A DNA stretch of 64,000 nucleotides from a virus (taxonomy: Duplodnaviria; Caudoviricetes). Within the stretch, counting starts at the first letter, position 1; every line of letters starts with the position of its first letter. The DNA is taken from the IMG/VR virus record IMGVR_UViG_3300043812_000026; one strand, written 5' to 3'. This document shows positions 1,301 through 49,127 of this stretch, in pieces. Both the position numbers and the translations under genes were made by a program. A model generated the notes under the pieces. It saw only the letters and a program-made list of their open reading frames with translations, did no database searches and was not told the DNA's origin.

Positions 1301-1915
1301 TTACTTAACCTTTCTAGTAGCGTTAATTGCACATACCGGACATTTGTGTTTACTAAGAAAGAAACTGGCTGGGGTAGTCATCCATACAGTATCACACTTC
1401 TTATGCTTAAAAGTAACACGTTGGTGGTATCCTTTATATTCAGATAGAACTTCGAATTCGTCTCCATGTGGTAAGTTATGAACTCGCTCCTTAAATTCCT
1501 CAGTGGTTAAAGATTGCTTCTTAGAACGAACCTTATTAGCACATACAGGACAACGAACAGATCCAACACTAAAGGTATTAGGAAGAGTCTTAAATACAGT
1601 ACCACATTTCTTGTGCTTATAACGAATTGGTGTCCGATTATTTACAAAGTCATCTAAAACCTCATACCCATCATTAGTCATTCCTTTTACATACTCCCTA
1701 TACTCTGCTGGGGTGTAGCGGGGACGACCACTACAGTAAGGACAAGCAGGTCTTTGTAAAAAAGCCAAAGGATAAACATATAGCACATGACCACATTTAT
1801 TATGCTTAATATGAATCTTTACTGTTCCTTTCTCATAATGATCTAAAGCTGTATACTCGTCACCTACTAAATCATGCAATTCTTGTTTAAATTCTTTATC
1901 AGTTTTTCTTCGCAT
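1301..1915 (-). CDS. zinc-ribbon repeat DNA-binding protein (endonuclease-family paralogue lacking the nuclease domain)
   Basis: Three HxxC(G)...CPxC repeats like those of the EDxHD endonucleases here; no IEYDG motif; TTGACA promoter at ~1938-1969. Confidence 0.75.
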   Translation of the reverse strand: MRRKTDKEFKQELHDLVGDEYTALDHYEKGTVKIHIKHNKCGHVLYVYPLAFLQRPACPYCSGRPRYTPAEYREYVKGMTNDGYEVLDDFVNNRTPIRYKHKKCGTVFKTLPNTFSVGSVRCPVCANKVRSKKQSLTTEEFKERVHNLPHGDEFEVLSEYKGYHQRVTFKHKKCDTVWMTTPASFFLSKHKCPVCAINATRKVK

Positions 1916-2036: not shown

Positions 2037-3884
2037 TTAATCTTTATTTAGATGTTTAGTTAACTCAGACTCTTTCCAAATCTTACCAGTTTCCCGGTCT
2101 CGAATTAATCTTTCTTCTGTATCACCTACTGAATAGTGAATGCTATCTTGTTTAGGATAAGGTTCAACATCAAATTTAAGGGTCTTACGGGCTTGTTTCT
2201 TAAATGTTTTTGACCCTAAGAACATAATATAACGATATTTGATAGGACTAATTATCATATACCTATAGTAATGACCTTTTTCCCATACACCACCATGCTT
2301 ACCATATCCATTCCAAGAATATTCACGATGTTTAGTAGTTCCGCAGTATAAGAAATTAGTAGCTTGGTAAATTGCTCCAGTATGGTGCATACCTTGATCG
2401 GCAAAGGAGATAATAAACCAATTACCATCTTGTTCTTGCTTTAATTGTCTTAAAGTCCATGAGACAAACTTAGACGTAATATTCTTTAAATTTTGACTTA
2501 CTTCGTCTTTAATATATAGTCGAGATAGTTCTAAGGTGTTATCTTTATTAGCTAAAGGTGAGATTGACTGAGCAAGGCTAATTCTAGGTCTTGTATATGT
2601 TACCATTCCTGCCAGACTTCCTCGATAATATAAACCATAACAATAAGAAGTAGTAACTTTACGGTGTAAATAATGATACCTAACCATTAACTCGTTAAGA
2701 TCTGTACTCTCTACCTTTCTAAACTCAATGTCACTAAGCTTATCTACTAAAGGTAAAAGATAATAGTCTAATGTGTCCTTAATACTTTCGTCATATCTAA
2801 TTCTAATTAAATTAATACCTTTTTCCTTACAATAATTATCTTTCATTCTATCATGTTTCTTTTGCAATTCATAACGCTCTTTACCCCCAAACAAATCGAC
2901 AGGATTAAAATGTTGTTGGCCATCATATTCAATAGCAGTATTGAATTGAGACAACCAGAAGTCAAAGTGAAGGTTTTTCTTATCTATTAAATCTGGAATT
3001 AAATAACCATAAGAGTAACTAATCCTGTGTGATACTAAATAATTCATAATCGCCTGCTCACCATTAGAAGAACCACAATTAGGACACAATCCCCTATTAG
3101 CACTAAGTTGCCCCCACGTGGTTTTAAACACAGTACCACATACGTTGTGCCTTACATAGATAGGGCTTTGATTGTTCTTATAATTACCACTTACATATGT
3201 ATAACGACCATCAGCAACCCTTGTAATTCGTTGCTTAACTTCGTCTAAGGATAGCCTACATCTGTCACCTGTTGCTTTATTAGCACAAAATTTACAACGA
3301 TAACCATGTATGAAACTATAGTCACGAACCCAATAATCATTTTCGCACTCTTTATGTAGTAAATGTAGCCACAAGCCTTCTTTTTTAGTCCTTTTAGTTC
3401 CTAATAATTCATACTTGCCTTTTCCTAAATCTTTAACCTCTTTAATTACTTTATTGGATGTTTTAGGGGCATTTCCTGCGCAATTGGGGCATCCTTTACC
3501 TTTTAATAAATTAACTGGCAAGGGAGTCCATTCACCTTTTGAACCATATCCACAGACAAGACACTTCGCTTTTGTTTTCTTAAAAATACCATGTATAGGT
3601 TCGAGCAAAATAATATCATCACTTGGGCGAATTTTATGTAGTCTTTTCTTAAACTCCTCGTCTGTTAACATACGACTATTAGATCTTCCCCTCATACTAC
3701 AGTACTTACATTTTGCCTTACCCCTAAAAATATTATCAGGGATTAAAGTACCGGTAGTACCACAGACTAGGTGTTTATATTTAACAGGTGTTTTCATATC
3801 CTTATAGGGAGGATAAAAAACATATTTAGATCCTAGAATACGTTGTGCCCTATAGCTAAATTCATCAAAAGTTAGTTTCTTCAA
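2037..3884 (-). CDS. zinc-ribbon/EDxHD-type endonuclease fused to C-terminal Mom-like (GNAT) DNA-modification domain
   Basis: 4 Zn repeats; HFDFWL..IEYDGQQH..HDRMKD nuclease; then YHYLHR..LELSRL..ISFADQGMHHTGAIYQATNFLYCG typical of the Mu Mom family. Confidence 0.75.
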   Translation of the reverse strand: MKKLTFDEFSYRAQRILGSKYVFYPPYKDMKTPVKYKHLVCGTTGTLIPDNIFRGKAKCKYCSMRGRSNSRMLTDEEFKKRLHKIRPSDDIILLEPIHGIFKKTKAKCLVCGYGSKGEWTPLPVNLLKGKGCPNCAGNAPKTSNKVIKEVKDLGKGKYELLGTKRTKKEGLWLHLLHKECENDYWVRDYSFIHGYRCKFCANKATGDRCRLSLDEVKQRITRVADGRYTYVSGNYKNNQSPIYVRHNVCGTVFKTTWGQLSANRGLCPNCGSSNGEQAIMNYLVSHRISYSYGYLIPDLIDKKNLHFDFWLSQFNTAIEYDGQQHFNPVDLFGGKERYELQKKHDRMKDNYCKEKGINLIRIRYDESIKDTLDYYLLPLVDKLSDIEFRKVESTDLNELMVRYHYLHRKVTTSYCYGLYYRGSLAGMVTYTRPRISLAQSISPLANKDNTLELSRLYIKDEVSQNLKNITSKFVSWTLRQLKQEQDGNWFIISFADQGMHHTGAIYQATNFLYCGTTKHREYSWNGYGKHGGVWEKGHYYRYMIISPIKYRYIMFLGSKTFKKQARKTLKFDVEPYPKQDSIHYSVGDTEERLIRDRETGKIWKESELTKHLNKD

Positions 3885-4094: not shown

Positions 4095-4107
4095 TACTAT
4101 ATAATAA

Positions 4108-7778: not shown

Positions 7779-7849
7779 CAAAAAGTACAAAAATAAAAAA
7801 GAAATAGAGAATCTAATTCCTCTATTTCTTAGTAAAAATCAATCCAACT

Positions 7850-27924: not shown

Positions 27925-27988
27925 CTTCCTTTCCTTAACTTATGTTTTAAGTATAACACTTTTAGTTGAATTTTCAACTACTTTTGTA
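27925..27988 (-). promoter_or_regulatory. promoter/operator/RBS cassette copy 2
   Basis: 62/64 identical to 7715-7778. Confidence 0.75.
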
Positions 27989-28031
27989 TGAAAAATTAAA
28001 AATAAAAGAGCCTAGATAATAGTCATTTATA

Positions 28032-29540
28032 TTAACTAATTAAATAAGTAACTAGAGGTTGATAAGCAGATTTATAATGCTCAACTATATCCTTAGGACT
28101 AGGAATATCAATTGTATGACCTTTAACTTCTCTACGGTTAACGTCAATTGCCTTATGAATAGAAGAACGACTAGCCCCTACAATTTCTCGAACTTTAGTC
28201 ATTCCCTCTACCCAGTTACCATCAACAATAAAGTCATGATTATACTTAGGACTCTTCCTAGCTTTTTCTACCAATTCCTTAGCAAGTTCTGAGGTGTAAT
28301 CATCTGGTCTACAAAAGACAAAACCACCAAGAGAGCCTTTCTTATCCTCTAAGCAATGCTTAATATTACGTTCACCTACACCTAAAGTTTCTGCACAGGA
28401 GCGAATAGATAAAAAAGAAAATACTTGATTAGTTTTAGTGCTGATTGCATAAACGGGAGCGGTATTACCATTTTTATATTTAGTCATGACTGACTTGCTA
28501 ATATTAGAGCCATAGTGTGTATTATATTTAGCTGTACACCATTCTAAATTAGTAACTTTATTATTCTTCTTATTTTCATCCTTATGATTAACATACGGTA
28601 AGTTATGAGGATTAGGCAAAAATAATTGGGCTACTAGTCTATGGATAGAAAATCTACCTATCACTCCATCTACACTTAATGATACATATGAATAAGCATT
28701 CTTACCGTCTGTAAATGGAATCAAAATACGATCACTAATTGTAGAATAAATCCTACCATAGTTTGAAACTTTATAATCATGAAATTCTTTCCAAACTTCT
28801 TTAAAATCATTATCACCATTCCAATCATAGTTGGGAAAAGCTTTAAGTAATTCAGTCTCTGTATAAACCTTATTCTCTTGGCGATCACGGATTAATCTTT
28901 CTTCTGTATCACCTACTGAATAGTGAACGTTATCTTGTTTAGGATAAGGTTCTATCTCAAATTTAAGGGTCTTTCGAGCTTGCTTCTTAAAAGTCTTTGA
29001 ACCTAAGAACATAATGTAACGATACTTAATTGAACGTAAGATAAAGAAACGGTAATGATGTCCCTTAACCCATTTACCACCTTTCTTATCTGGTCCGTTA
29101 TAACAAAAAATACCAGAATCTGTCGTTCCACAGTATAAAAAGTTAGTAGCTTGATAAATTGATCCTGTATGGTGCATTCCTTGATCAGCAAAAGAGATAA
29201 TAAACCAATTACCATCTTGTTCTTGCTTTAACTGTCTTAAAGTCCATGAGACAAACTTAGAAGTAATGTTCTTTAAGTTTTGAGAAACCTCGTCTTTTAT
29301 GTACAATCGGGATAGTTCTAGGGTGTTATCTTTATTAGCTAGAGGTGAGATTGAAGAAGCTAGGGACTTACGTACATGAGTATAAGTAACCATTCCTACT
29401 AATTGATTTTGGTAGTACATTCCATAAGCATACTTACAAGCTACTACTCGGTGTAAATAATGATACTTAATCATTAATCCATGCAGGTCTAAAGGATTAA
29501 CTTTCTTGAATTCAATTTGTTCTTTATTTATCTTTGTCAT
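28032..29540 (-). CDS. Mom-like (GNAT) DNA-modification domain fused to NUMOD4-HNH homing endonuclease
   Basis: N-terminal ~230 aa nearly identical to the Mom-like domain of 2037..3884; then EVWK..YKVSNYGRI, HRLVA..VNHKDENKKNN..NLEWCT..N. Confidence 0.8.
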   Translation of the reverse strand: MTKINKEQIEFKKVNPLDLHGLMIKYHYLHRVVACKYAYGMYYQNQLVGMVTYTHVRKSLASSISPLANKDNTLELSRLYIKDEVSQNLKNITSKFVSWTLRQLKQEQDGNWFIISFADQGMHHTGSIYQATNFLYCGTTDSGIFCYNGPDKKGGKWVKGHHYRFFILRSIKYRYIMFLGSKTFKKQARKTLKFEIEPYPKQDNVHYSVGDTEERLIRDRQENKVYTETELLKAFPNYDWNGDNDFKEVWKEFHDYKVSNYGRIYSTISDRILIPFTDGKNAYSYVSLSVDGVIGRFSIHRLVAQLFLPNPHNLPYVNHKDENKKNNKVTNLEWCTAKYNTHYGSNISKSVMTKYKNGNTAPVYAISTKTNQVFSFLSIRSCAETLGVGERNIKHCLEDKKGSLGGFVFCRPDDYTSELAKELVEKARKSPKYNHDFIVDGNWVEGMTKVREIVGASRSSIHKAIDVNRREVKGHTIDIPSPKDIVEHYKSAYQPLVTYLIS

Positions 29541-30673
29541 AGTTTTAAACCACCTTTTGTTAAACTTTCCTTTATATCCTTATAATTATCACAAGTATAA
29601 GGGATCTCAATTAAGTTATACCCGTTAGCTTTTGCATAGTCACGCTTTAATTTATCATGATACTGCTGTTTCTTAAATTGTTCTTTTCCACCAAAATGAT
29701 CAATAGGCTCATAGTGTTGCAATCCTTGGTATTCAATTAGTACCCTCTGATCATCTACACAAAAGTCATAATGCAAAGGAAAACCACCAACGCCTAATAA
29801 GTCACTAAACTTCTTAGGATGCTCATAAGATATAGTACTATCATTTAAAATATTATTAATTATAAGTTCTCCATGCGGGGTATTGCACATAGGGCAACCA
29901 CCTTTTTTAGATAGCATCCAATTAGGCTTTGTTCCCCAAACATATCCACACCTATGTTTGAGCATTATTTTCTTTTTTGCTCCACGATAAGGACTGACTA
30001 CTGTATAAACTCCTCTTCCATATATTTCATTCAATTCTCTTTGAAATTCCTTAGTAGTCTTTTTAGGGGTCTTAAAGCAATAAGGACATCTCTGCCCTCT
30101 CATTATATTCATAGGTCTAACTGTATAAGTATGATGACAAATATTGTGTCTAACTAATATAGGTGTATGAGAATTAACATACTCCCCTAAAACAGTATAG
30201 TCATTTCCATATATTTTACTAATCCTATCCTTAAACTCGTCTGTAGTTAATCTTACATTATGTGCACAATATTTACAACGACTACCATTTAGAAAGGAGT
30301 TTGGTTTCATTTGTAATACATGACCACAAACCTTATGTTTAATCAAAATAGGTGTTTGAGAATTAACATAAGGTTCTAATACAGAGTATTCGTCACCAAC
30401 TAAATATTTAACACGTTTTATAAACTCATCATTAGACATACACCTCTTATTTGCTACTTCTTTCCTACGACACTTAGGGCATCTACGACCATTTAAAAAG
30501 CTATCGGGAACAACTCTATACACATTACCACAAACATTATGACGTACTAATAACTTAGTTCTATTATTCTTATAAGGCTCAAGAAAAGTATAATCATCAC
30601 CTACTAATTCTTTAACCTGTTTAACAAATTCTTCATTAGTTTTTCTTCTAGTCATTAATATCAACTCCTTCAT
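29537..30673 (-). CDS. free-standing zinc-ribbon/EDxHD-type endonuclease
   Basis: 4 Zn repeats + LHYDF..IEYQGLQH..HDKLK; ATGA overlap with the Mom-HNH gene. Confidence 0.8.
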   Translation of the reverse strand: MKELILMTRRKTNEEFVKQVKELVGDDYTFLEPYKNNRTKLLVRHNVCGNVYRVVPDSFLNGRRCPKCRRKEVANKRCMSNDEFIKRVKYLVGDEYSVLEPYVNSQTPILIKHKVCGHVLQMKPNSFLNGSRCKYCAHNVRLTTDEFKDRISKIYGNDYTVLGEYVNSHTPILVRHNICHHTYTVRPMNIMRGQRCPYCFKTPKKTTKEFQRELNEIYGRGVYTVVSPYRGAKKKIMLKHRCGYVWGTKPNWMLSKKGGCPMCNTPHGELIINNILNDSTISYEHPKKFSDLLGVGGFPLHYDFCVDDQRVLIEYQGLQHYEPIDHFGGKEQFKKQQYHDKLKRDYAKANGYNLIEIPYTCDNYKDIKESLTKGGLKL

Positions 30674-30774
30674 TTATGATTATAGCACAATTAGTAGAAG
30701 TAGTCATAACAAAATTATAAAAAAAAAATAAGAGCAAGAAATTAATCTTACTCTTACATAAATTATTTTATAGA

Positions 30775-32295
30775 CTAGTCAATTACACTGGAAGGAATTG
30801 ACTTAGCTGTTGAGTTGTATAATGTGTTATGGAGCAAAGCTACCCGCTTAGGGAAGATCAAAGCTAAACTCCCAAACCACAAATATGCCACGTTGGTTGC
30901 CGTTGTAGTAATTGCTAATGGGAACTTAGTGATTGGCGCAAATTCGAGATAACGTAATGTAGTAGGACGATTTTCAATAATGAATACGTCACCAGTACCA
31001 GGAATAGTTTCGTTGTTATCTTCGAATACGATAGTACCATCACCAGCCATCTTAGAAATAGCTACACGACCTACAAGCCAGAATTGGTCATCACCAGGAA
31101 CATCTGACTTACGATAGATTGCAACATAATCGGGAACGTTAGCAACCATACGGTTAAGAGTTGCAGTAATCTTAACAGTATCAGTAGGGTTCGTAACTTT
31201 AACCTTAACTTCATCTGATGGTAATGAATCTTGTTGACCTACAGCAACTACACGGTATGTTAAGTTAACACCAACAGACTTATTAAGAACAACCTTACCG
31301 TCTTTGTCCTTCTTGTCGTCTGCCATAAACATACCATTGTCACCAGTAACAACTTCTGCCTTAACAGTTGGAGCTACTGGAGCGTCTTGGTCTACAGCAC
31401 CGTCCATATCAAGCTTCTTATCAAGGTCCATAATAGTTGAACCATGAAGAGCAATATTACCACGAGCTGAAATGAACCGTTGAATATCAAGACCAACTTG
31501 CATACCAGCACCAGCTGAGTTAGGTTGTAAGATACGTTGTGCACCAAGGTGTTCGTTAACGAAATCAGCCTTAATACCTACCGGCATATAAGCATCAGTT
31601 GGTGTACCATAACCTTGAGCAATCTTAACAGCGGCTAAGTTAAGTGCTTGTGGTGTAAGGGAAGAACCACGCATATCAATCTTGTTGTGTTCGTCCATAA
31701 GCTTTTCAAGACCATCAAATTCAAGACCTTCACCGTCTTGTTGAGCCAAGTCTGAGTCACCATAGAAAGTAGCATATTCAATAGCCTTAGCAATGTTGTT
31801 AATAGCTGAGATTTCCAACAAGATGTTGGTATCAACAGTTGTATTAGCCCATTGCATTGCAAATGAACTACCCTTAGTATCTACAAGGAACTTAACGTTA
31901 ACAGTCTTTTGCCGTGCATGAGGTTCGTTAGAACGAAGCTTAGCAATTTCTGGTTGGAACATTTGGTGTCCTGTACGACCATGTGAGTAGTAAACAGTAT
32001 ACTTTTGAACAGTTTGGTTAACAGGTACCTTAGCGAGATCCTTATAGATTGTATAATCTTCGTCTCCATAAGTAGAGATGTTAAGAGTAGGATCTAATGC
32101 TTCCATACGGTAAGCGGCACCATCTGGTTGTGTTTCTGGCGTAATACCAGTACCAGCAGTAAAGGCTTTAACAACCCGGTCTGCCTTATCATTGTTTAAA
32201 GACTTATTTAACTTGTCTTCTTGATCTTGTTTAAAAACAGACTTTACTACAGTCTTTTCTTTTAGTAATTCTGGCAAAATTTTCATCCTTTCCAT
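30775..32295 (-). CDS. major capsid protein
   Basis: KAFTAGTGITPETQ, IAKAIEYATFYGDSDL..GLEFDGL, GYGTPTDAYMP Twort-like MCP motifs. Confidence 0.95.
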   Translation of the reverse strand: MERMKILPELLKEKTVVKSVFKQDQEDKLNKSLNNDKADRVVKAFTAGTGITPETQPDGAAYRMEALDPTLNISTYGDEDYTIYKDLAKVPVNQTVQKYTVYYSHGRTGHQMFQPEIAKLRSNEPHARQKTVNVKFLVDTKGSSFAMQWANTTVDTNILLEISAINNIAKAIEYATFYGDSDLAQQDGEGLEFDGLEKLMDEHNKIDMRGSSLTPQALNLAAVKIAQGYGTPTDAYMPVGIKADFVNEHLGAQRILQPNSAGAGMQVGLDIQRFISARGNIALHGSTIMDLDKKLDMDGAVDQDAPVAPTVKAEVVTGDNGMFMADDKKDKDGKVVLNKSVGVNLTYRVVAVGQQDSLPSDEVKVKVTNPTDTVKITATLNRMVANVPDYVAIYRKSDVPGDDQFWLVGRVAISKMAGDGTIVFEDNNETIPGTGDVFIIENRPTTLRYLEFAPITKFPLAITTTATNVAYLWFGSLALIFPKRVALLHNTLYNSTAKSIPSSVID

Positions 32296-36121: not shown

Positions 36122-39100
36122 TTAGAACTCCGTTTCGTTCTTAATCTCATATTCACGTTGTATATCAGTCTGTTCTGGGGTAAAGATGTCATTATCAAGA
36201 TAATCAATCTGTGTAGACTTTCTACGCTTCATAGCGTCCTCTTTCATTAACTTATCAAGCCCCACCATTGCATAAACACTTGCTTGTGCTGAATGATCAC
36301 CATCTTTACGAGTAATAATTTGAACTTGTTGTATAGTGTGGGTTTGCTTATCTTCTCTATCATCAGTACGGATAATAATATTCTTCCAATGAGTAATAAA
36401 TAACTTAATCATTGGGTCATTTTGAGATCCTTGGTAGAAATGAATATCACCCCGTCTCAAATTACCCATCATAATTTCATTTTGTGCTAACTTATCAATT
36501 AAAACAGAATTATCAGAGTCATTAAAATGAGCTACAAAATCCCCCTTAGAAAGAGCAGAATTTACTCGTACCCCATAAACACGTTGAATTCCATAATAAG
36601 CCATTAATTTTTGATTATAGGAACCAGAATCAACTTAGAAATACATTTCTGTACACAACCTAAGCTAGATTATATCTTAATGATACAAAATAGTATCATC
36701 ACTACTATTGTTAATTATCTTAACTATATATGTCTTAATATCCTTATAAGTATTAATTCTATAAGGTATTCTAATAAGTTTTATACCTGCTTTCTCACAA
36801 AAAGAGTCCTTAATTTTATCATGTATTATACCAGTTTTACTATAAAATAAACTTTTATTTTTATAGTGTTGAACACCATCATACTCAATACATAAATTGT
36901 AATCAGGTAAATAAAAGTCAAAAGGTAGCATCCGTTTATCTATACAGCCACTAAAAGTTTTTTGATAATCATACTTAATTCCTAAGGATTCTAATATCTC
37001 TAATATTAGAACTTCACCTCTTGAACTGTTATGACAAAAGTAACAACCTATATGCTTATCAACTATCTGTCTAAGAGATAAATATATAATATGATTACAC
37101 TTTTTATGCTTTATTCTCATTTTAGTATGATCATCTTTATAATTATCTATTCTTATATACGTATTTCCAAGAATATCAAGTATTAGTTGATCTACCTTTT
37201 TATTATCATATGTTTTATGTATCTTTCTTAGATACCTAGCACACTTAGGACATCTTCTACCTTGTATAAATTTTGTAATATTTACTCTATAAGTAAATTT
37301 TCCTCCATCTATACAATGATTATGAGTAATTACAATTTTATGCTTAGTGTCTATTTGTTCAGAATCTATTGTATATTCATCACCAACTAACTTTTGAACC
37401 TTCTGTCTATAGTATTGAGAACCCTTCATACGTCCCTGCCCCTGTCTTCTATGACCACATCTGGGACAACCACAGGAAGAGTTTAATAACTGGTTAGGAG
37501 TAACCTCCCACTCCCCTTTAGAACCATAGTTACAAACTAAACACTGATGTTTTATTTTTACTAAGATACCTTTATAGCTCTCCAGAGGAATAATACTAGG
37601 TTTCTTTTGTTTTAATTCTGAAATATATTGCTTATTAGTACGTTTTGCCAAAGTTTACTTTCACCTCACTTATAGTATAGCAAAGTATAAGTATTCTGAG
37701 GCAAATATAATAGTAAATAATTAAAGCTTAATCGTTAGTCATTTAATTTAGAACGGTTGGTCAACTCTATCCCTAATTACTAGGATTTAGTCTTTCTTAC
37801 TAGCTTATTCTTTATTGTAATTATTATTTAGCTTTACCCGTTTAAGTAGTTTATTTTTCTAAATATTACTATTTAGTGGAGCTATCTGTTAACCCCGAGT
37901 CTGGAAGAATTAAGTCTGGTTGATAAAGATTTAAGTGTCTAACAACTAAATTAAGATCTTCTTCAATATGTTCAACACCTGTAGACTTAGGTACACGGTA
38001 TATATCCATTAAATCAATCCTACCATTAGGACGCATACCTAAAGTAACAATATGATGATAATGTTGTCCCCAGTCAATACCAGAAACCACATACTTATAA
38101 TTATCACGATTATCTGGATGTTTATAATTATTATCTATATGGTAAAGTACATCTTCTTCTCTAAAAGTTGTACCAGAGTCTTGATAAGGCATTCCAAGAT
38201 TGTAATTATAAAAATACTGTTTCGAAGGGCTTCGTAGTTCCTCTTGCTTTAAATGGTCTGCCGTAATCCACGTAGCATTCATTTGTGAAATACTAAAGCC
38301 AGTACGTCTTCCCTTACCCGGCTTCATAGCTACCCATCTACCATTATACCATCTATCAATTGGACGTTTGCATTTTTGGCATACGAACTGAAAAGTACCC
38401 GGTTGAACAACTTTACCTATAGTATCAATACCATCTTTATGGACCTGCTTAATATTTTTATTATAATCCATAACTTGTTCGTAACCACAATGTTGACACT
38501 TATGTACCCAATACCGTTGATCAGACTCCATAAACAATTTGTGAATCCCATACCCTTCAGTTGTTGGGGTAGACCAACGTCTTAAGAGTTTATACTTTGA
38601 AGACTCCATAGACTGAATAGCTGATTGTTCTGCTAAAGGTGATATGCGATCGTACTCATCAAGAGCCGTCACATCAATGTGTAGACCCTCTAGGGAAGCC
38701 CCATTAGAAGCAGTTCTGAATGTTAATTCACTATCCCTAATTTTCATACCCTTCATAGTCATCGTTTTAGGGTCTTTTATTAAAGATCTATAATAACCAT
38801 TTTCAAATTCTGGTCTAATACGTTGTTTATAAAACGTGTCCAACTGACGATACGTAGGAAAGGCATATAAACCAGAAGCACGATCATATGAATGTGTGTC
38901 TAGCCAATAAATCATCATCTCTATACCGACTTCGCTTAGTCCCAGTTGTCGACTTTTTATCACACAAATATCTTGATCATTAGCACTGTTGACTATACCT
39001 ACCTGCCAAGGACGATGACCTAAAGCGTGGGTTGTATCGTAATCTGGTACATTAAAAGTTAATGGCTTACCATTTATCGTATGGTGTTGAAGTAAATAGT

Positions 39101-39225: not shown

Positions 39226-40185
39226 CTATTTAATATCCCACTCTTTTAGAAAATTAACAATTTGTTCATAACTACGGCACAAATAAGGTACACAAACAAG
39301 AGTATAATTGTTATCTACTGCATAATTATATTTCAACATATCATGATATTTTTGCCTCTTAAATCTTTTTTCACCGCCCAGCCAACGAACAGGAAAATAA
39401 TGTTGACCCCCTTGATATTCAATTAAATATTTTAGACTTGGAATATAAAAATCATAGGATAAGGATTGTTTATCTAATAAATCAGAAAAAGTTTTTTGAC
39501 GCTCATAGCCAATACCAATTTTATCTAAATACAAACGAATAAAAGACTCTCCCTTAGGCTCAATATTGCAAAAAGGACATCCGTTATTATAACGAATAAC
39601 ATCATCAAAACGAGCATACCATTTATTACCACAAGTTTTACACTGAACTAAAATCTTCTTATGTGTCCCTTTAAAATCACCTAATATCCTAAGATAGGGA
39701 TTTCTTGAATTTTTAATTCTCTTCTCAGCTTCGTCTTTAGTTAAAACATTACTTTTATGATTCTTATACCAATTTTTGCTTAATACTTTTGACTTACAAT
39801 TAGGACAACGCCTACCTTTTAAAAAATTATTAGGTGTAATCTCCCATACATGACCACACTTATTATGCTTCATCTTTACCTTAACTGAAGCTTTAACATA
39901 TTCACCGATAACTGAATATTCGTCTCCCACCAAAGACTTAACTTGATCCTTAAACCATTTAGTAGTTTTCAGCTTAGTATTAGCTCCACGTTGATGAGAA
40001 CATTTAGGACATCTATGCCCATGATAAAAATTAGCAGGTCTTATTAACCATACATTTCCACATAAATTATGTTGACATTTAATCTTAGTATCAACTCCTT
40101 GGTAAGGATCTAAAAATGTATATTCATTACCTACTAAATTATAAATACGTCGCTTAAATTCATCATTTGTTAATTTTCTACTCAA
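39226..40185 (-). CDS. free-standing zinc-ribbon/EDxHD-type endonuclease
   Basis: LSYDFYIP..IEYQGGQH..HDMLK; immediately upstream of terL. Confidence 0.8.
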   Translation of the reverse strand: MSRKLTNDEFKRRIYNLVGNEYTFLDPYQGVDTKIKCQHNLCGNVWLIRPANFYHGHRCPKCSHQRGANTKLKTTKWFKDQVKSLVGDEYSVIGEYVKASVKVKMKHNKCGHVWEITPNNFLKGRRCPNCKSKVLSKNWYKNHKSNVLTKDEAEKRIKNSRNPYLRILGDFKGTHKKILVQCKTCGNKWYARFDDVIRYNNGCPFCNIEPKGESFIRLYLDKIGIGYERQKTFSDLLDKQSLSYDFYIPSLKYLIEYQGGQHYFPVRWLGGEKRFKRQKYHDMLKYNYAVDNNYTLVCVPYLCRSYEQIVNFLKEWDIK

Positions 40186-40479: not shown

Positions 40480-41938
40480 CCTGCTATATAAAATGTGAAC
40501 AAACATAATCCTATATGCTAAGTAATTATGTTTGAGAAAGAAATATAGCTTTTCCTTTCTTTATTTTATTTACTGTCGTCAACGCTGGTATTCTCATATC
40601 CTAACTAGAGGGTAATGGCATTGACCAACTATTACAGCTTAAGGGCTTAGCCAGCCCCAATTATATTTTTTTCTTCTTTACGCTAAAGCCAAAAGATTTA
40701 AGACTGCATTTTGGTCTCGATCCATTACCACACCGCATTCATAACAAATATATTCATTGTGTTTAGTACCATGTTTTTGATTACCATCGAGACCAATTTT
40801 ATCTTTGCCTTGCTTGATGTGACCACATGCAGAACAGCGTTGTGTTGATGGATAGAATTGATCAGCTAAGATTAATTCTTTACCATACCATTCACACTTA
40901 TAGGTTAATATTTGTCTAAAATAACCAAACAGTGATCTCTGCATACCTTTAGAAGCTACATGAGTCATCTGCATCTGTTTGACTGCTAAATCTTCAATGA
41001 CAGTCTGGTCATAACTATCAACCAGCTTAGTCGTAAACTTCTGCAAAAGATCATGTTGGATATTAACTACTTTACGATAATCACGTTGCAACTTGGCTCT
41101 CGTTTTAACGTAATTATTACTTTGTGTAGCTAACTTACCATTAACCTTTCTCTTACGAGCTAGCATTTTTTGATAATGCCTGATCCGCTTATAAAGCTTT
41201 TGCAATTTAGCAGGTAAGACGTTAAGCTTCCCATCAGTATAGTTAAAGTGACCTACATTTAGATCTACTGCCGTCTTATTACCAGTTTTAGGTTTCTTAG
41301 CTATTTCAACTTCAAAAGGTAGGCTAGCCCAGTATTTACCATTTTCACGATAAATTGAAACAACTTTTAAATCACCATCTAAAGCCTTAGCACCTTTAAA
41401 ACTAATATCATACCAAGTTTTAACTCTGTGTGGTTTATCAAGTCTTAACTTACCATTAACAATCTTAGCTCTATCAGTTTTAAATCCTTGTCTAGGAGCT
41501 TTCTTAGATTTAAATCTAGGCTTTCCCCAATCAGGTAATGCTTTATTAAAGAACTTCTTCCAAGCATTACCTAAATCAGAAATTGCTAAGTATAAACACC
41601 GTGACGATAAACTATATTGCCAGTCAGCTTTATTAGAGGATAACTCCTTACGGACTCTGCTTTCATTAGGGATAGGATTGTCTTTCTTGTTCAAGTTATG
41701 AGCTTCATACATATCATTCCACAGCTCTAACCCTTGATTCCAACAATATCTACGATAATCGCATAGATCATCAAGAACTTTCTTCATTGTTTGGTTGGGA
41801 TAGAGTCTTACCTTTTGAACTCGAATCATTATTTTCACCACCTTGCATTGACATAATATCTACCTCACATTTTATCTTTCTGTAGATATTATATCATAGG
41901 TGATCGTATTTTAATATCCTTTAATTAACAGTTAATCA
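40480..41938 (-). mobile_element. TnpB-only IS607-like element (no tnpA)
   Basis: GGTGAT at both junctions (40476-40481, 41935-41940); structured ~200 nt 3' region ending TATAGCAGG. Confidence 0.6.
40678..41841 (-). CDS. tnpB: RNA-guided endonuclease TnpB
   Basis: RLYPN HTH; RuvC AVDLN, VIEDL, DRDQNA; CSACG/CYECG zinc finger. Confidence 0.9.
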   Translation of the reverse strand: MVKIMIRVQKVRLYPNQTMKKVLDDLCDYRRYCWNQGLELWNDMYEAHNLNKKDNPIPNESRVRKELSSNKADWQYSLSSRCLYLAISDLGNAWKKFFNKALPDWGKPRFKSKKAPRQGFKTDRAKIVNGKLRLDKPHRVKTWYDISFKGAKALDGDLKVVSIYRENGKYWASLPFEVEIAKKPKTGNKTAVDLNVGHFNYTDGKLNVLPAKLQKLYKRIRHYQKMLARKRKVNGKLATQSNNYVKTRAKLQRDYRKVVNIQHDLLQKFTTKLVDSYDQTVIEDLAVKQMQMTHVASKGMQRSLFGYFRQILTYKCEWYGKELILADQFYPSTQRCSACGHIKQGKDKIGLDGNQKHGTKHNEYICYECGVVMDRDQNAVLNLLALA

Positions 41939-44845: not shown

Positions 44846-47056
44846 TCACCACTTTCCATTTAAAATTGCGTCATCTACATAGGACTTAATTTCATTTTTA
44901 TCTGCGTCAGTCCAATAATCAGTACCACGAACAGGGGTATGACCTTGCATATTACCAATAACAGCACCGATGTCAAAGGTACCACCACCAGCAGAAGCAT
45001 CTCCATTAGCATTAACAGCAGTTACTTGGGTAATCATACCATTAGTTTGAATAACTAAGTCGCCAACCTGTGGGCCAAAACCAACTTTAGTATTGTAAAG
45101 ATCAGACCACCACTTGCCTTGCAGGTTACCCCCATAAGCCTTCTTATTAAACCAAACACTACTGCCCCTCAGTTGTTGTCTAATCTGTGACATCGGTAAT
45201 GCCCAGAAAGCATGATCATCATCTAGCCCTAGTACCTTTGGATCTGGAGCATCATTAAGTACAGTTATTATAGCACTATTTTGTACAAATGTATCTGTAT
45301 GAGGAATCCAAGTTAACCCAGAAACATCAGAAGCTATGTTGATCCTTAATCCGCCACGAGCGTAGAAAGCATAGTTCAAATTATTATCGCTAGGAATGGC
45401 AAAGGTTAATAAGCGCTTACCATCTGTTGTAAAATTTGATGGTTGATCGTCAAGCACAATCAGCTTACGATCATAAGCACCCCAATTACCTTGACCGTAT
45501 AAAACAGCTTGTCGGGCACAAGCATCTTTACTAGTATCACTAGAATGACCACCATAAGGAACATCTATTCCAATATACAAAGGAGCTTCTAAGCTAAAAT
45601 AACTAAGCCCCCACAAAGAACCTTTACTAGTAGTATTAGCATCTACATAGTACCACTTATTACGATCATACTTAGCATCTGTTAAGTCTACAGTATAATG
45701 GTAAAACCCGGGATCACCTTTTGGTCCTTGAGATCCAGTATCTCCTTTTACACCTTGTGGACCTTGTGGTCCGGTTTCACCCTTATCCCCCTTGGGGCCT
45801 TGACTACCAGTAGCCCCGGTATCTCCTTTATCCCCTTTTGGTCCTTGTGGTCCAGTTAAACCTTGCTTACCTTGAATACCTTGAATACCTTGTGGTCCTT
45901 GTGGTCCTTGAATACCTTGCGCACCAGATAGGTCAGAGATATAAACAAACTTACTACCATCCCAAACATAGAGCTTTGAATTATCTGGATCACTAACATT
46001 ACTTGCAATCATTGTAAAGTCACCGTCAGTAAATCCAGCGCCTTTACTTGCATTCATTGCAGATACAGAGTCAAAAGTTTTTTTAATATTAAAGTTCTTA
46101 CCAGCAGGACCTATAGGACCTTGTGGACCAGTGGCCCCAGTATTACCCTGAATACCTTGAGGACCTTGTAAACCAGTAGCACCACGATCACCTTTTGGAC
46201 CAGCTACACCAGCTAAGTTAGCTAAGTAAGGGCCATAATTAAATGTACCCCCACCGGCTTCGGGAACTCCACCATAGCTAACACCAGTTACTTGCACTAA
46301 GTGACCACTGCTCAAAACAACTAAATCACTAACCTGTGGTCCTCGATCTGGAGCAGAACCTTTTAGATCAGTCCAATATGAGCCACGATAGTTTTCTCCA
46401 TAATCGTGAATATCAAACCAGATGTTATAACCACGATCACCCTTAGGACCAGTAGGACCAACTAGAGTCTTTTCATAGTCCTTAAAGCTACCGGTAAAAC
46501 CAGCATCTCGTGCTAATTCATATAAGGACTTACCAGTCTCACCCTTAGGAATATCAAAATGTAAAACATCATACTGATCTAGGTAAACATTAGCGTTTTT
46601 ATTAGAATCAATTGTCGATACTTTAATATCTTTAATATCAATATCATGAACGTGCAAAACTTGGCGTTCAACAATCTTACTCGTATCGGGAGGAGTAATA
46701 TTAGTAGCTTCGGGAGTAAAGATACTCTTAAAGACTAATCTGTTGTTATTATAAGCCAAAGTAATATACTTCGCTGTATTGCTAGGATAATACTCCATAT
46801 GGTCTGAATAACGCATACTAAGATAAAAAGCATATGTTCCTAGTCCTAATGAAGATAACTGGCTTAGTTTAAAGTAAACACCATCGTCATTAGCATTTAC
46901 TGGAATAGTTAAACGACTATTACCACTAAGATCATAAAAGTGCATATTTAATTCCACGTTAAAGAACTGTAAGCTCTTTTGCGAATTAGTAGGAACTAAA
47001 TAAATTGTTGTATCATTATCACTAGGAATGCTTGAAATAAAACTTAATTTATTCAT
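44846..47056 (-). CDS. collagen-like fibre/appendage protein
   Basis: Gly-X-Y runs; duplicated WF..YG..W.DL..GPQV.DLV..GGGTF domain. Confidence 0.8.
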
Positions 47057-47211
47057 TAGACCCTTGCATTCCCCTTTCTTATCACATGGTTTCGCTAATT
47101 GTAATATAGGGGATTAAACATAAGCAAAATAAAAAACCTTTCCTGCATTATAACAAGAAAGGATGTAAACAAAATTATAAGTATAGTAACAATTAACTAA
47201 AATATCAATAA

Positions 47212-49110
47212 CTATTTTTTAGGAATACCTAAAATAAATCCATAATATCTTAGCGAAGAAATATTAACTACTCCGTCTGCCCCTACATTTAACTTTTGGG
47301 GTCCTAAATTACTTAGATCAAAATAGTACCAGTCATGATTAGTTACGCCTAACTTAAGCGTTACTTTAATATTTTGTGCTGGAGAAATACTACAATTAGC
47401 GTTTGTATCCCGCCAATCAGTATTATCAGTCTTAAGATTAATTAAACTTAAACCTAAATAATCATTCTTATTTCCTCGGCTAATTCCACAAACTTTACCA
47501 CTTTGTAAATAATCTACACTACCACCATCAATAGTAGCCAAACCGTCAACTTGATAGCCTAGGCCAATAATTTCTTTAAAAGCAACAAAAAAGTCATACA
47601 TCTTAGGTAAATAATTATCTTTAAGCGTTGAGGGGAGATTAAGATTACTATTAGGGAAATACTCATTACAGAGCATATGCTCACCCATTTCCAAATGAGT
47701 ACCACCACTAGCCATAATCACTAAGTCAGCTAGAATTATTCCGTCCGTATTAAAATACTTACCAGCATTATTTTTAGCGTAGTTATAGTCCATATAAGCG
47801 GCTATAATTACACCTTTCTTTTGCTTGTTACTATCCCGTGATTCAGTAAGAAATTTAACCAGATTAAACAAGTCATTATAAGTCTTACGATTATCCCATA
47901 CTTCGGTATAAAGATATTTAGGAACTGTTGAATTTCTAATATCATCAAGTCCGTATTCACCAACAGAATTAACACCAGTATCCCAACCTAATTTACCAAC
48001 TTTATTTAGGAAATAATGGATACCATTAGCAAGAGTAGCGCTACTAATTAGATTACCATTGGCCTCATACTTATTACCGGGGTCACCAAACATATCAATA
48101 TGCCAACCATCAAAAGGCATATTATCCTTAACTATCTTCATTTGATTAACAATATAGTCTTGCCAAGGACCATTCATCCAATTCATATTATAAAGATTAT
48201 ACTTACCCCAGCCATTATTCTTATCTAGTGTCTTATAAACATGATCTAAATTCCTAGAATTATCGTCAAACAAAAACATTTCCGCAGAAAGACCGTGTAC
48301 TAATTGGTTAGTATCTGAACCATTCATTGCCATATAGGCTAAAGGCTTCATACCATAGTCTTTAGCTAAATTACAATATTCATCAATAACTTTCTTTCTA
48401 GTCAAACGATTACCAATATCAGTCCAAGTATTTGAAACTTGTAAGCTATCACCAACAGAAGCAACAGGTAGTGGTAATGAATGTAAGTCAAACCAGTCAT
48501 AAAACTGTATTAGATTAATATGCAGACGCTTTAAATAGTCTAAATTATTTTTCCTTTCTACTGAAGAGTCATTATCATACTTAGAAAGAAACCCCATAAT
48601 AGGAAAATTATAAATATCATTACTTACATTAATTGCAATTGTCTCTGTTGATACATTATTACCAACGTGATTTTCAATTACTACAGTATAACCAATATTA
48701 TCATCAGCAGGCAAAAACCAAGACCAACTAAGCTCAGAAGTTCCATAATAAATTTCTTTAGTGGCAACTAAATTATTCAAATGATAATACTTAACTACTA
48801 AATGACCATGACCAGAAACACTAGTAGCATGAAATACTACTTTTTCAGACGGATAATAAACAGCCTTATCTGTATTAAGATCTAACAAAGTAGCTGAGTC
48901 GTCTTGGTCCCTCATACCTACTGAATACTGAGTAGTAATACTACCTATCTTCCAATGACCATTGTCGTCAATCTGTGGGGTAAACCCATCATTACCTTTA
49001 GGTCCAGTGTCACCCCTATCCCCCTTAGGGCCTTGAGGTCCAGTAGCACCAGTCTTTCCTACAGTTCCTTGAGGTAAAGCTCCCAAGTCTATATCAGTCT
49101 GTAAACTCAC
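47212..49110 (-). CDS. GH66 dextranase-like glycoside hydrolase with N-terminal collagen stub
   Basis: TDKAVY.P, HINLIQFYDW, DGWHID..G, YTEVW, AAYM, GGTHLEMGE..NEYFP. Confidence 0.8.
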   Translation of the reverse strand: MSLQTDIDLGALPQGTVGKTGATGPQGPKGDRGDTGPKGNDGFTPQIDDNGHWKIGSITTQYSVGMRDQDDSATLLDLNTDKAVYYPSEKVVFHATSVSGHGHLVVKYYHLNNLVATKEIYYGTSELSWSWFLPADDNIGYTVVIENHVGNNVSTETIAINVSNDIYNFPIMGFLSKYDNDSSVERKNNLDYLKRLHINLIQFYDWFDLHSLPLPVASVGDSLQVSNTWTDIGNRLTRKKVIDEYCNLAKDYGMKPLAYMAMNGSDTNQLVHGLSAEMFLFDDNSRNLDHVYKTLDKNNGWGKYNLYNMNWMNGPWQDYIVNQMKIVKDNMPFDGWHIDMFGDPGNKYEANGNLISSATLANGIHYFLNKVGKLGWDTGVNSVGEYGLDDIRNSTVPKYLYTEVWDNRKTYNDLFNLVKFLTESRDSNKQKKGVIIAAYMDYNYAKNNAGKYFNTDGIILADLVIMASGGTHLEMGEHMLCNEYFPNSNLNLPSTLKDNYLPKMYDFFVAFKEIIGLGYQVDGLATIDGGSVDYLQSGKVCGISRGNKNDYLGLSLINLKTDNTDWRDTNANCSISPAQNIKVTLKLGVTNHDWYYFDLSNLGPQKLNVGADGVVNISSLRYYGFILGIPKK

Positions 49111-49127
49111 CTATAAACATCTCCCCA

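What the first reader, a model, noticed from the sequence alone, without database searches (positions are those of the whole stretch)
28032..30673. Second Mom-endonuclease cassette with different architecture behind the capsid gene
Seen: an EDxHD nuclease gene (29537-30673) is coupled by ATGA overlap to a gene whose N-terminal Mom-like domain is near-identical, even in DNA, to that of 2037..3884 but is fused to an unrelated NUMOD4-HNH endonuclease. The order EDxHD then Mom recurs, fused once and split once, and both cassettes follow highly expressed late genes (capsid, tail tube). Inference: repeated association with two nuclease families argues for functional coupling, not chance.
Basis: partly seen in the sequence, partly recalled or inferred. 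Interest (0 to 1): 0.8.

Follow-up and report, generated by a model that had tools for sequence, protein, structure and literature searches.

The report
Homing nucleases joined to Mom DNA-modifier
Behind the capsid gene of a Lactobacillus-type phage sit two selfish DNA-cutting enzymes joined to a relative of phage Mu's DNA-protecting enzyme Mom; this pairing recurs widely and was already predicted in print, but what the Mom part does has never been tested.

Summary
Gene 29537-30673(-) has four zinc-ribbon units and a Vsr/I-Bth0305I-fold (EDxHD) nuclease. It overlaps by ATGA a 502-aa gene made of Mom, an I-HmuI-type NUMOD4-HNH nuclease and a DNA-binding tail. The two Mom domains in the window are 76% identical in protein and 52-91% in DNA (dS about 0.6-0.95), so they are old, constrained paralogues, not near-identical.

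Close relatives carry the same unit behind the capsid gene as one fused ORF. In them the EDxHD interior is swapped, and the HNH block is replaced by a 57-nt linker. Mom stays tightly constrained (dN/dS 0.05).

Among the 150 nearest Mom clusters, at least 15 are fused to nucleases: EDxHD, HNH, GIY-YIG, EndoVII-like and RNase T, in either order. The linkage is therefore not chance.

Iyer et al. 2021 already predicted nuclease-Mom fusions as cut-and-protect units in jumbo phages, and this scan has met Hef-like-Mom genes on other DNA. New here are the I-HmuI-type HNH fusion, the three-enzyme cassette and the natural split/fused and HNH+/HNH- variants.

My reading is a self-protecting homing cassette (0.42). 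The main rival is homing genes carrying Mom as anti-restriction cargo (0.33).

The parts
29537..30673 (-). EDxHD/Vsr-fold homing-type endonuclease gene (378 aa as listed; the likely true start is ATG 30655). It has a zinc-ribbon array (about 29888-30655) and a nuclease domain (about 29540-29887).
   Evidence: phrog_559 scores 1.5e-139. Foldseek finds 3r3p at prob 0.99. The catalytic residues are invariant.
28842..29540 (-). Mom domain (residues 1-233 of the 502-aa ORF 28032-29540). Its ATG overlaps the EDxHD stop as ATGA, and it has its own SD (AAAGGTGG) 9 nt upstream.
   Evidence: PF25680 scores 4e-30. The equivalents of Mu H58, Y59, R111, S124, D149 and Y159 are conserved. dN/dS is 0.05-0.06 against relatives.
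28461..28811 (-). NUMOD4 plus HNH catalytic block (residues about 244-360), of I-HmuI type. It is present here but replaced in frame by a 57-nt Lys/Pro-rich linker in G001 and L009.
   Evidence: 1u3e at 6.7e-12, HNH motif aligned.
28035..28460 (-). C-terminal I-HmuI NUMOD-like plus helix-turn-helix DNA-binding tail. Relatives that lack the HNH block keep it.
   Evidence: phrog_3855; dN/dS 0.13-0.17.
30728..30757 (-). Intrinsic-terminator-like hairpin (12-bp stem plus T run) after the capsid gene.
30679..30707 (-). Sigma-70-like promoter match with an extended -10 (TGcTATAAT) in front of the EDxHD gene.
   Evidence: consensus match only.
30775..32295 (-). Major capsid gene, the conserved upstream neighbour. 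The cassette sits at this position in all four relatives examined (G001, L009, L010, L014).
27925..28007 (-). Promoter plus RBS repeat (TTGAAA-16-TATACT) of the next gene. It bounds the cassette downstream, and a second copy lies at 7715-7797.
2037..3884 (-). Paralogous cassette 1: a single 615-aa ORF with zinc ribbons, an EDxHD nuclease and Mom, behind the tail tube gene.
1301..1915 (-). Zinc-ribbon-only ORF (204 aa, no nuclease domain) directly after cassette 1. It is probably a decayed or domesticated homing-endonuclease remnant.

Best explanation
The region is a compact mobile cut-and-protect cassette of a Herelleviridae-like Lactobacillus phage. Two homing-type nucleases are present. One is an EDxHD/Vsr-fold enzyme with a zinc-ribbon DNA-binding array. 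The other is an I-HmuI-type HNH nickase with a NUMOD/HTH tail. I infer that they cut or nick a conserved site in sibling phages that lack the cassette or are unmodified. Repair from the cassette-bearing genome would then copy the cassette in (intronless homing or marker exclusion). The Mom domain is translationally coupled to one nuclease and covalently joined to the other, and I infer that it adds a glycine-derived group to adenine N6 in the phage's own DNA. It would thereby keep the carrier genome refractory to the linked nucleases and, as a bonus, to host restriction. What is shown: the domain identities, the intact catalytic residues of all three enzymes, purifying selection on all parts, conserved positions behind the capsid and tail tube genes, fused and split forms, and repeated independent Mom-nuclease fusions. 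What is inferred: that the nucleases are active and site-specific, that Mom modifies DNA here, and that the modification blocks the linked nucleases.
For: (1) Mom is fused independently to at least four homing-type nuclease families, on either side. EDxHD is N-terminal in P0009, P0020, P0033, P0037 and P0043. NUMOD4-HNH is C-terminal in P0014 and P0011, and N-terminal in P0050. AP2-HNH is N-terminal in P0178. GIY-YIG is C-terminal in P0154. EndoVII-like modules occur in P0083, P0116, P0136 and P0166. These fusions fall in different parts of the Mom tree. Recurrent fusion points to interplay rather than mere adjacency. (2) The fusion partners are whole nucleases, not just DNA-binding arms. The putative catalytic E, D, E, H and D residues are invariant in all 30-31 EDxHD rows aligned, and most of those rows were picked by Mom similarity only. 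(3) All Mom residues that are invariant across the family or essential in Mu are kept (PMC13219725). dN/dS is 0.05-0.06. (4) Coupling is preserved whichever way the gene is written. It is an ATGA overlap here and in G001, and one ORF in L009 and L010; the difference is a 7-nt indel. (5) In relatives, nuclease, Mom and the DNA-binding tail sit in one chain, the layout of single-chain restriction-modification enzymes. (6) The two Mom paralogues are identical in the catalytic core but diverge in the segment aligned to Mu's DNA-contacting insertion (aa 134-158: dN/dS 0.65, against 0.03-0.13 in the core). That would fit different site preferences for each cassette. (7) Published prediction of the same logic for REase-Mom fusions (PMC7824862).
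Against: The nuclease parts turn over while Mom stays. The EDxHD interior is replaced between the window and L009 (36% against 91-97% identity). The HNH block is missing in G001, L009, P0003, P0007 and P0010. Zinc-ribbon-only and DNA-binding-only remnants exist. That is the ordinary homing-gene life cycle around a resident gene. EDxHD nucleases do well without Mom: three more copies lie in this window, one sits alone behind the capsid gene of phage 3-521, and many are intron-borne. Swapping the EDxHD module without changing Mom argues against matched specificity, unless Mom is broad. Stand-alone Mom genes with no nuclease neighbour occur inside the same clade (P0039 and P0040). The residue equivalent to Mu R151 is Gly, although this holds family-wide. 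The HTH-like insertion is about 12 aa shorter than in Mu. No activity, target site or modification has been measured.
Confidence: 0.42

Rival explanations
1. Hitch-hiking or cargo model. Mom is an ordinary anti-restriction gene that protects phage DNA from host enzymes. Free-standing homing endonuclease genes have repeatedly settled beside and in frame with it. The nucleases spread Mom by co-conversion, and its benefit slows their loss. There is no biochemical interplay between Mom and the nucleases.
For: Nuclease modules are swapped, lost or decayed around a constant Mom. The cassette positions, next to the capsid and tail tube genes, are classic homing sites. An EDxHD gene sits alone behind the capsid gene of phage 3-521, and Hef-like F-LimVIII sits beside the tail tube gene of LIMEstone1 (PMC3296691). 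The tail tube gene beside cassette 1 carries two ORF-less mini group I introns, the usual way of protecting a homing site (collaborative homing, PMC3984707). Most Mom genes are stand-alone. There is a precedent for a homing endonuclease boosting adjacent anti-defence genes (SegB, PMC13096335). The dS of the Mom-DBD segment between the window and G001 (0.39-0.44) is about three times that of the flanks (0.13-0.18), which shows recombinational exchange of this segment.
Against: Hitch-hiking needs adjacency, not fusion. It does not explain why in-frame fusions to several nuclease families recur with Mom in particular. It also does not explain why the nuclease catalytic residues stay invariant in every fused protein sampled.
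Confidence: 0.33
2. Targeting model. The homing-endonuclease-derived DNA-binding modules (zinc ribbons, NUMOD/HTH tail) have been recruited to tether or aim Mom on DNA, which improves modification. The nuclease activities are incidental or on their way out.
For: The I-HmuI-type DNA-binding tail is kept in frame and under constraint (dN/dS 0.13-0.17) in relatives that have lost the HNH block. P0038 is Mom plus this tail only. Mu Mom needs its own HTH-like DNA-contacting insertion (PMC13219725), and that insertion is shorter here.
Against: Fusions to DNA-binding modules alone are rare. Nearly all partners carry an intact nuclease. The HNH-less alleles still have an EDxHD nuclease in the same ORF or operon.
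Confidence: 0.12
3. Chance adjacency in a genome crowded with mobile nuclease genes. The fusions would then be gene-calling or assembly artefacts.
For: The window holds five EDxHD genes. It also carries other mobile elements: a Transposase-1 RNA match, mini group I introns, and TnpB/omegaRNA elements reported by earlier notes of this scan.
Against: Both Mom domains directly follow an EDxHD domain (rough chance 0.004). The same arrangement recurs in independent assemblies from several samples, as intact ORFs, down to 50% identity.
Confidence: 0.03

Closest known systems
REase-fold nuclease-Mom fusions of group 2 jumbo phages (Iyer, Anantharaman, Krishnan, Burroughs and Aravind 2021, Viruses 13:63, PMC7824862). 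Earlier notes of this scan equate these with 'Hef-like' homing endonucleases.
   Same: A restriction-endonuclease-fold nuclease (EDxHD is Vsr-like) is joined to a Mom-family GNAT. There are several copies per genome. The published prediction is that momylation protects the phage while the nuclease attacks host or superinfecting-phage DNA.
   Different: Here the host is a Herelleviridae-like Lactobacillus phage of about 150 kb, not a jumbo phage. The Mom gene also carries an I-HmuI-type HNH nuclease and a DNA-binding tail at its C-terminus, which gives three catalytic modules. The EDxHD part is a separate, overlapping gene. I did not check whether the jumbo-phage or Hef-like proteins have the same zinc-ribbon EDxHD module.
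I-Bth0305I, prototype of the EDxHD homing endonuclease family (PDB 3r3p; PMC3239194)
   Same: The C-terminal Vsr-like catalytic fold and the composite acidic/His motif are shared. It belongs to a Gram-positive phage. Family members are intron-borne or free-standing.
   Different: I-Bth0305I has N-terminal NUMOD2/HTH motifs and no zinc ribbons. It is intron-encoded in recA and has no Mom. No sequence-level match to 3r3p was found.
I-HmuI, HNH nicking homing endonuclease of Bacillus phage SPO1 (PDB 1u3e)
   Same: The order NUMOD4-like N-terminal part, HNH motif, NUMOD-like part and helix-turn-helix is shared, with a sequence match of 6.7e-12 over residues 20-166 of the C-terminal part. Both come from a Herelleviridae-type phage.
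   Different: I-HmuI is encoded in a group I intron of the DNA polymerase gene and stands alone. Here the module is fused behind a Mom domain and is dispensable in close relatives.
Phage Mu Mom (PDB 8bv8; Gly-tRNAGly-dependent adenine N6 modifier, PMC13219725)
   Same: The Pfam family is the same. The best structural match of the modelled cassette 1 domain is 8bv8 (E 2.7e-11, TMt 0.74). The equivalents of the essential H58, Y59, R111, S124, D149 and Y159 are conserved.
   Different: Identity is about 25%. The R151 equivalent is Gly. The HTH-like insertion is shorter. The domain is fused or coupled to nucleases instead of being regulated by Com and Dam.
Single-chain (Type IIG/IIL-like) restriction-modification enzymes. 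This comparison rests on my own knowledge.
   Same: In relatives such as P0001, a nuclease, a modification domain and a DNA-recognition module lie in one polypeptide.
   Different: The modification domain is a tRNA-dependent GNAT, not a SAM methyltransferase. The nucleases and DNA-binding parts are of homing-endonuclease type, with long, rare sites expected. Nothing has been tested.
SegB homing endonuclease and anti-defence loci in T-even phages (PMC13096335)
   Same: A free-standing homing endonuclease is physically associated with genes that counter host defence and promotes their copy number or spread.
   Different: SegB is not fused to its cargo. The cargo there is a tRNA or an anti-defence gene, not a DNA modifier.

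Membership tests
Mom family (Pfam PF25680; Mu Mom) | Profile match above the curated cut-off | tested here: met
   The scores are 105.3 bits (cassette 2) and 107.0 bits (cassette 1), against a cut-off of 27.1. phrog_1384 scores 3e-40 and 8e-42.
Mom family (Pfam PF25680; Mu Mom) | GNAT fold closest to Mu Mom | tested here: met
   The cassette 1 model (pLDDT 85) has 8bv8 as top hit, E 2.7e-11, TMt 0.74. The cassette 2 domain was not modelled, but it matches 8bv8 by sequence at 1.3e-10.
Mom family (Pfam PF25680; Mu Mom) | Residues essential in Mu: H58, Y59, R111, S124, D149, R151, Y159 (PMC13219725) | tested here: inconclusive
   H27, Y28, R78, S94, D119 and Y129 are conserved. The R151 position is G121. 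That position is not Arg in most of the 60 homologues either, and these instead share an invariant H124.
Mom family (Pfam PF25680; Mu Mom) | HTH-like insertion required for activity | tested here: inconclusive
   An insertion is present, but it is about 12 residues shorter than in Mu. It is the most divergent segment between the two paralogues.
Mom family (Pfam PF25680; Mu Mom) | Gly-tRNAGly-dependent modification of adenine N6 in dsDNA | not testable with these tools
   This needs LC-MS or SMRT data on phage DNA or on plasmid DNA from expressing cells.
EDxHD / Vsr-like homing endonucleases (I-Bth0305I) | Vsr-like catalytic fold | tested here: met
   Foldseek gives 3r3p_B prob 0.99 and TMt 0.62, 1vsr prob 0.98, and 1cw0 prob 0.90. 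The whole-protein E-values are weak (0.04-0.15) because the query has several domains.
EDxHD / Vsr-like homing endonucleases (I-Bth0305I) | Composite catalytic motif E..D..x..H..D | tested here: met
   GE, xDF, IEYxGxQH and (H)D..K are invariant in the five window paralogues and in 31 aligned proteins. Residue-by-residue mapping to I-Bth0305I E170, D196, H213 and D222 is by pattern only and was not superposed.
EDxHD / Vsr-like homing endonucleases (I-Bth0305I) | Detectable sequence homology to a characterised member | tested here: not met
   phmmer of the nuclease domain against PDB sequences found no 3r3p match, only spurious hits. PHROG families annotated as homing or intron-encoded nuclease do match (phrog_9084 at 8e-31, phrog_7140). 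tblastn also finds 'Hef-like homing endonuclease' genes of AR9 and PBS1.
EDxHD / Vsr-like homing endonucleases (I-Bth0305I) | Presence/absence polymorphism at a conserved site, and site-specific cleavage of the empty allele | tested here: inconclusive
   The same site behind the capsid gene is occupied in all four relatives examined, and by a distant EDxHD gene alone in phage 3-521. LfeInf lists no nuclease gene right after its capsid gene. No clean empty allele was aligned, and cleavage is not testable here.
I-HmuI-type HNH homing endonucleases | NUMOD4, HNH motif, NUMOD-like part and HTH in order, with sequence homology to I-HmuI | tested here: met
   1u3e matches at 6.7e-12, with VNHKDENKKNN..TNLEW aligned to VDHKDGNKDNN..TNLRW. 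NUMOD4 scores 26.0 against a cut-off of 23.4. HNH_3 (24.3 against 24.8) and I-HmuI_NUMOD-like (25.7 against 27) fall just under their cut-offs. phrog_59 scores 3e-38.
Restriction-modification-like 'cut and protect' unit | Nuclease and modifier are co-inherited and co-expressed | tested here: met
   The two are joined by an ATGA overlap or fused in one ORF in every relative examined.
Restriction-modification-like 'cut and protect' unit | The modification blocks the linked nuclease, and unmodified DNA is cut | not testable with these tools
   This needs biochemical assays.
Hef / Hef-like free-standing homing endonucleases (phage U5, LIMEstone F-Lim, Acj9) | Homology to named Hef proteins that include a Mom-like C-terminal half | not tested
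   This claim comes from earlier notes of this scan. The LIMEstone paper lists Hef-like genes, one beside the tail tube gene, but does not mention Mom. I did not align a named Hef protein.

The most novel reading that the evidence does not exclude
The homing-endonuclease DNA-binding modules aim the Mom domain at the nucleases' own recognition site. The cassette would then be a single-locus, tRNA-dependent cut-or-protect gene drive. Carrier genomes would keep an intact but momylated target, so the nuclease would never run out of targets and would escape the usual decay cycle of homing genes. The two or three cassettes per genome would have different site preferences, set by the variable Mom insertion.
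Probability: 0.15. Interest if true: 0.8.

Novelty: new variant of a known kind. Interest (0 to 1): 0.45.

Why it matters
Homing endonucleases are thought to avoid cutting their own genome because their insertion or a polymorphism destroys the target. A covalently attached DNA modifier would be a different, restriction-modification-like solution, and it would explain why Mom domains keep being captured by unrelated nuclease families. This locus offers natural contrasts in near-identical backgrounds: split versus fused genes, alleles with and without HNH, and a swapped EDxHD module. These make the open question of what Mom does in such fusions directly testable. Mom chemistry (glycyl-tRNA-dependent adenine modification) was solved only recently, so assays now exist.

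Tried and rejected
- A two-domain AlphaFold model (nuclease plus Mom of cassette 1) gave pTM 0.58. That value cannot tell a fixed interface from two independent domains, so I draw nothing from it.
- The window's own assembly is not held, so Mom copies outside the window could not be counted. The records behind L009 and L010 are not held either.
- phmmer of the nuclease domain against PDB sequences gave only spurious de novo TIM-barrel hits.
- Lactococcus phage AM1 gp155, which a tblastn match ran into, is not a convincing Mom fragment (E 0.003 over 47 aa) and was dropped.
- A search for a duplicated capsid 3' end at cassette 2, as an insertion footprint, found none.
- The first maximum-likelihood tree run did not finish, so the tree used is FastTree with SH-like supports only.
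- Literature searches for PA5oct Mom genes and for 'Hef-like' plus Mom gave no paper describing the Mom half of Hef-like genes.
- I rejected the idea that the 83-nt repeat at 27925-28007 is a cassette end. It is a promoter plus RBS shared with another gene.
Full report
**What is there**

The window comes from a large Lactobacillus-type, Herelleviridae-like phage. Its capsid protein is 63% identical to that of phage LfeInf.

ORF 29537-30673 (minus strand) encodes 378 aa. It has four CapR/treble-clef zinc-ribbon units and a C-terminal nuclease domain. An AlphaFold model built on 31 aligned sequences reached pLDDT 87. For the C-terminal domain, the best domain-level Foldseek matches are the I-Bth0305I catalytic domain (3r3p, prob 0.99, TMt 0.62) and Vsr (1vsr, prob 0.98). 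The pattern GE ... xDF ... IEYxGxQH ... (H)D..K is invariant in the five paralogous nuclease domains of the window and in 31 aligned proteins. This fits the composite EDxHD motif defined for I-Bth0305I (PMC3239194). No direct sequence match to 3r3p was found.

The stop codon of this ORF overlaps the start of ORF 28032-29540 as ATGA, and an AAAGGTGG lies 9 nt upstream of that start. The 502-aa product has four parts:
- Residues 12-201 are a Mom domain (PF25680, 4e-30; 1.3e-10 to Mu Mom 8bv8).
- Residues 249-345 are NUMOD4 plus HNH.
- Residues 364-409 are an I-HmuI NUMOD-like part.
- The rest is an HTH tail.

The C-terminal 269 aa match I-HmuI (1u3e) at 6.7e-12, with the HNH motif aligned.

A six-frame HMM scan finds exactly two Mom domains, five EDxHD nuclease domains and one I-HmuI-type HNH domain in the 64 kb. 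Both Mom domains directly follow an EDxHD domain.

**How alike the two Mom copies are**

They are 76% identical over 225 aa. By 25-codon blocks, DNA identity runs from 52% to 91%. The catalytic core (aa 59-133) is 96-100% identical in protein, yet it has dS about 0.6 and dN/dS 0.03-0.13. Overall dS is about 0.95 and dN/dS 0.2.

They are therefore old paralogues, both under purifying selection. They are not near-identical DNA. The most divergent internal stretch is aa 134-158 (dN/dS 0.65). It aligns with the HTH-like insertion that contacts DNA in Mu Mom (PMC13219725).

**Is Mom likely to be active?**

The equivalents of Mu H58, Y59, R111, S124, D149 and Y159 are conserved as H27, Y28, R78, S94, D119 and Y129. 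So is every column that is invariant across 60 homologues. Mu R151 corresponds to Gly here. That position is not Arg in most family members either; they share an invariant His three residues later (H124). The modelled cassette 1 domain has Mu Mom as its top structural match (E 2.7e-11, TMt 0.74).

**Relatives**

- G001 is an IMG/VR fragment 90-95% identical in DNA. It has the same two overlapping genes behind the capsid gene. Its Mom ORF has 405 aa, because the 348-nt NUMOD4-HNH block (28461-28811) is replaced in frame by 57 nt that encode a Lys/Pro-rich linker. The DNA-binding tail is kept.
- Metagenomic proteins P0001, P0003 and P0007 are 94-97% identical in Mom. Each is a single ORF made of EDxHD, Mom, linker and tail. 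In locus L009 the P0001 ORF lies directly after the capsid gene.
- The split and fused states differ by a 7-nt indel just before the shared AAACTATGAC.
- Between the window and L009, DNA homology is 90-92% up to codon 42 of the EDxHD gene. It resumes 75 nt before the Mom ATG. The EDxHD interior does not align, with 36% protein identity there against 91-97% for Mom plus tail.
- A more distant phage (L010, Mom 70% identical) also has a fused gene right after its capsid gene.
- The 92.6-kb contig behind L013/L014 has three Mom-bearing genes between the capsid and tail tube genes and just after the tail tube gene. It also has a lone EDxHD gene and a lone NUMOD DNA-binding ORF.
- L016 and L017 reproduce the context of cassette 1: tail tube gene, a 648-aa EDxHD-Mom gene, then 204-aa and 331-aa genes.

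Between the window and G001, every part is constrained:

| Part | dN/dS | dS |
|---|---|---|
| Capsid | 0.03 | 0.13 |
| EDxHD | 0.15 | 0.18 |
| Mom | 0.06 | 0.44 |
| DNA-binding tail | 0.17 | 0.39 |

The higher dS of the Mom and tail segment shows it has been exchanged by recombination.

**Family-wide survey**

An exhaustive profile-free search found 1352 Mom clusters. Of the best 150, 123 are under 300 aa and therefore stand-alone.

Among the 27 longer ones, at least 15 carry nuclease modules:
- Zinc-ribbon/EDxHD at the N-terminus: P0009, P0020, P0033, P0037, P0043.
- NUMOD4-HNH at the C-terminus: P0014.
- NUMOD4-HNH at the N-terminus: P0050, which lies after recA.
- Two HNH_3 domains plus AP2 at the N-terminus: P0178.
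- GIY-YIG plus HTH at the C-terminus: P0154.
- EndoVII-like, at PHROG level only: P0083, P0116, P0136, P0166.
- RNase T: P0064.

P0038 has only the DNA-binding tail. Other partners are ParB_N and YunG.

On a FastTree of the Mom domains, the EDxHD and C-terminal HNH forms make one clade of 45 rows. The other nuclease fusions are scattered elsewhere, which implies several independent fusion events. This is a quick tree. The clade's make-up is also biased by a length-restricted search.

In the unbiased list, 7 of the 10 nearest complete clusters are fused. The stand-alone ones, P0039 and P0040, have no nuclease neighbour. In cultured Herelleviridae, the A511 and phiSA_BS1 Mom genes have no nuclease neighbour. 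LP65 has a nuclease two genes upstream of its Mom gene.

**Is the nuclease an ordinary homing gene?**

Several facts say yes:
- EDxHD-type genes are annotated as intron-encoded or free-standing homing endonucleases in many Firmicutes phages.
- One sits alone directly behind the major head gene of Lactobacillus phage 3-521.
- Three further copies without Mom lie in this window.
- The tail tube gene next to cassette 1 is split by two ORF-less mini group I introns. This is the setting of collaborative homing (PMC3984707).

**Expression**

A 12-bp-stem terminator follows the capsid gene, and an extended -10 promoter-like site precedes the EDxHD gene. Cassette 1 also has a promoter-like site of its own. 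These are consensus matches only. They caution against assuming that the cassettes ride on late capsid or tail tube transcripts.

**Interpretation**

The linkage is not chance. Three mechanisms remain.

I favour the cut-and-protect reading at 0.42, for four reasons. Recurrent in-frame fusion to whole, catalytically intact nucleases of unrelated families points to interplay. The coupling is kept whether the genes are fused or split. Relatives have nuclease, modifier and DNA-binding tail in one chain. The same logic was predicted in print for REase-Mom fusions of jumbo phages (PMC7824862).

The main rival, at 0.33, is that homing genes repeatedly colonise and mobilise a beneficial anti-restriction gene. 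It is supported by the visible turnover of nuclease modules around a stable Mom, and by the ordinary homing behaviour of the EDxHD family. SegB is a precedent for a partnership between a homing endonuclease and anti-defence genes (PMC13096335).

A third option, at 0.12, is that the endonuclease-derived DNA-binding arms serve Mom itself.

**Novelty**

Nuclease-Mom fusions are published as a computational prediction. This scan has also met Hef-like-Mom, LAGLIDADG-Mom and two-family cases on other DNA. I did not verify those notes, apart from the 2021 paper.

Not seen described elsewhere in what I searched are four things:
- the I-HmuI-type HNH fusion behind Mom;
- the three-enzyme cassette in a Herelleviridae-like phage;
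- the natural variants (split or fused, with or without HNH, swapped EDxHD);
- the breadth of nuclease families fused to Mom.

No function has been tested anywhere.

Noticed in passing
window 4111-5044 (-): The tail tube gene is in three exons: aa 1-9 at 5044-5018, aa 9-47 at 4760-4644, and aa 48-144 at 4401-4111. They are separated by two ORF-less intervening sequences of about 250 nt each. These give sub-threshold group I intron matches (RF00028, E 6e-4 and 0.24) and belong to repeat families D11 and D13. A third copy of the repeat lies at 37715-37830, beside another EDxHD gene.
   Followed up: partly
window 4052-4153 (-): The last 14 codons of the tail tube gene are duplicated just after its stop. 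The copies include a 21-nt perfect repeat (4074-4094 and 4133-4153). The downstream, untranslated copy is closer to the C-terminus seen in relatives. This looks like a recombination footprint between the tail tube gene and cassette 1.
   Followed up: partly
window 1301-1915 (-): A 204-aa ORF is made only of zinc-ribbon repeats of the EDxHD type and has no nuclease domain. An ORF of the same size follows the EDxHD-Mom gene in L016 and L017, so it is conserved and may be a domesticated DNA-binding remnant.
   Followed up: partly
window 7927-8859, 36677-37651, 39226-40185 (-): Three further full-length EDxHD/zinc-ribbon nuclease genes lack Mom, and all keep intact catalytic residues. One of them follows the tail-lysin gene region.
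   Followed up: partly
window 40579-40637 (-): There is an Rfam Transposase-1 RNA (RF03014) match at 62 bits, just upstream of the EDxHD gene 39226-40185. Earlier notes on this genome report TnpB/omegaRNA elements elsewhere.
   Followed up: no
window 27925-28007 and 7715-7797: An 83-nt repeat (89% identical) carries a TTGAAA-16-TATACT promoter-like site and a strong RBS in front of two unrelated small genes.
   Followed up: partly
window 45700-50400 (-): Dense 9-nt-periodic repeats (families D1-D6) lie inside three large ORFs (44846-47056, 47212-49110, 49128-50411). They probably encode collagen-like Gly-X-Y tracts of tail fibre proteins.
   Followed up: no
L016 3046-4026 versus L017: Two near-identical relatives differ by an EcoRI_methylase-family gene between the tail sheath and tail tube genes. 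It is listed in L016 but not in L017, whose gene table has a gap at that position. This may be a second DNA-modification gene in the same neighbourhood.
   Followed up: no
L013 2781-10565: One 92.6-kb phage contig carries three Mom-bearing genes (479, 554 and 542 aa). It also has a lone EDxHD gene and a lone NUMOD DNA-binding ORF, all within 8 kb around the capsid and tail tube genes.
   Followed up: partly
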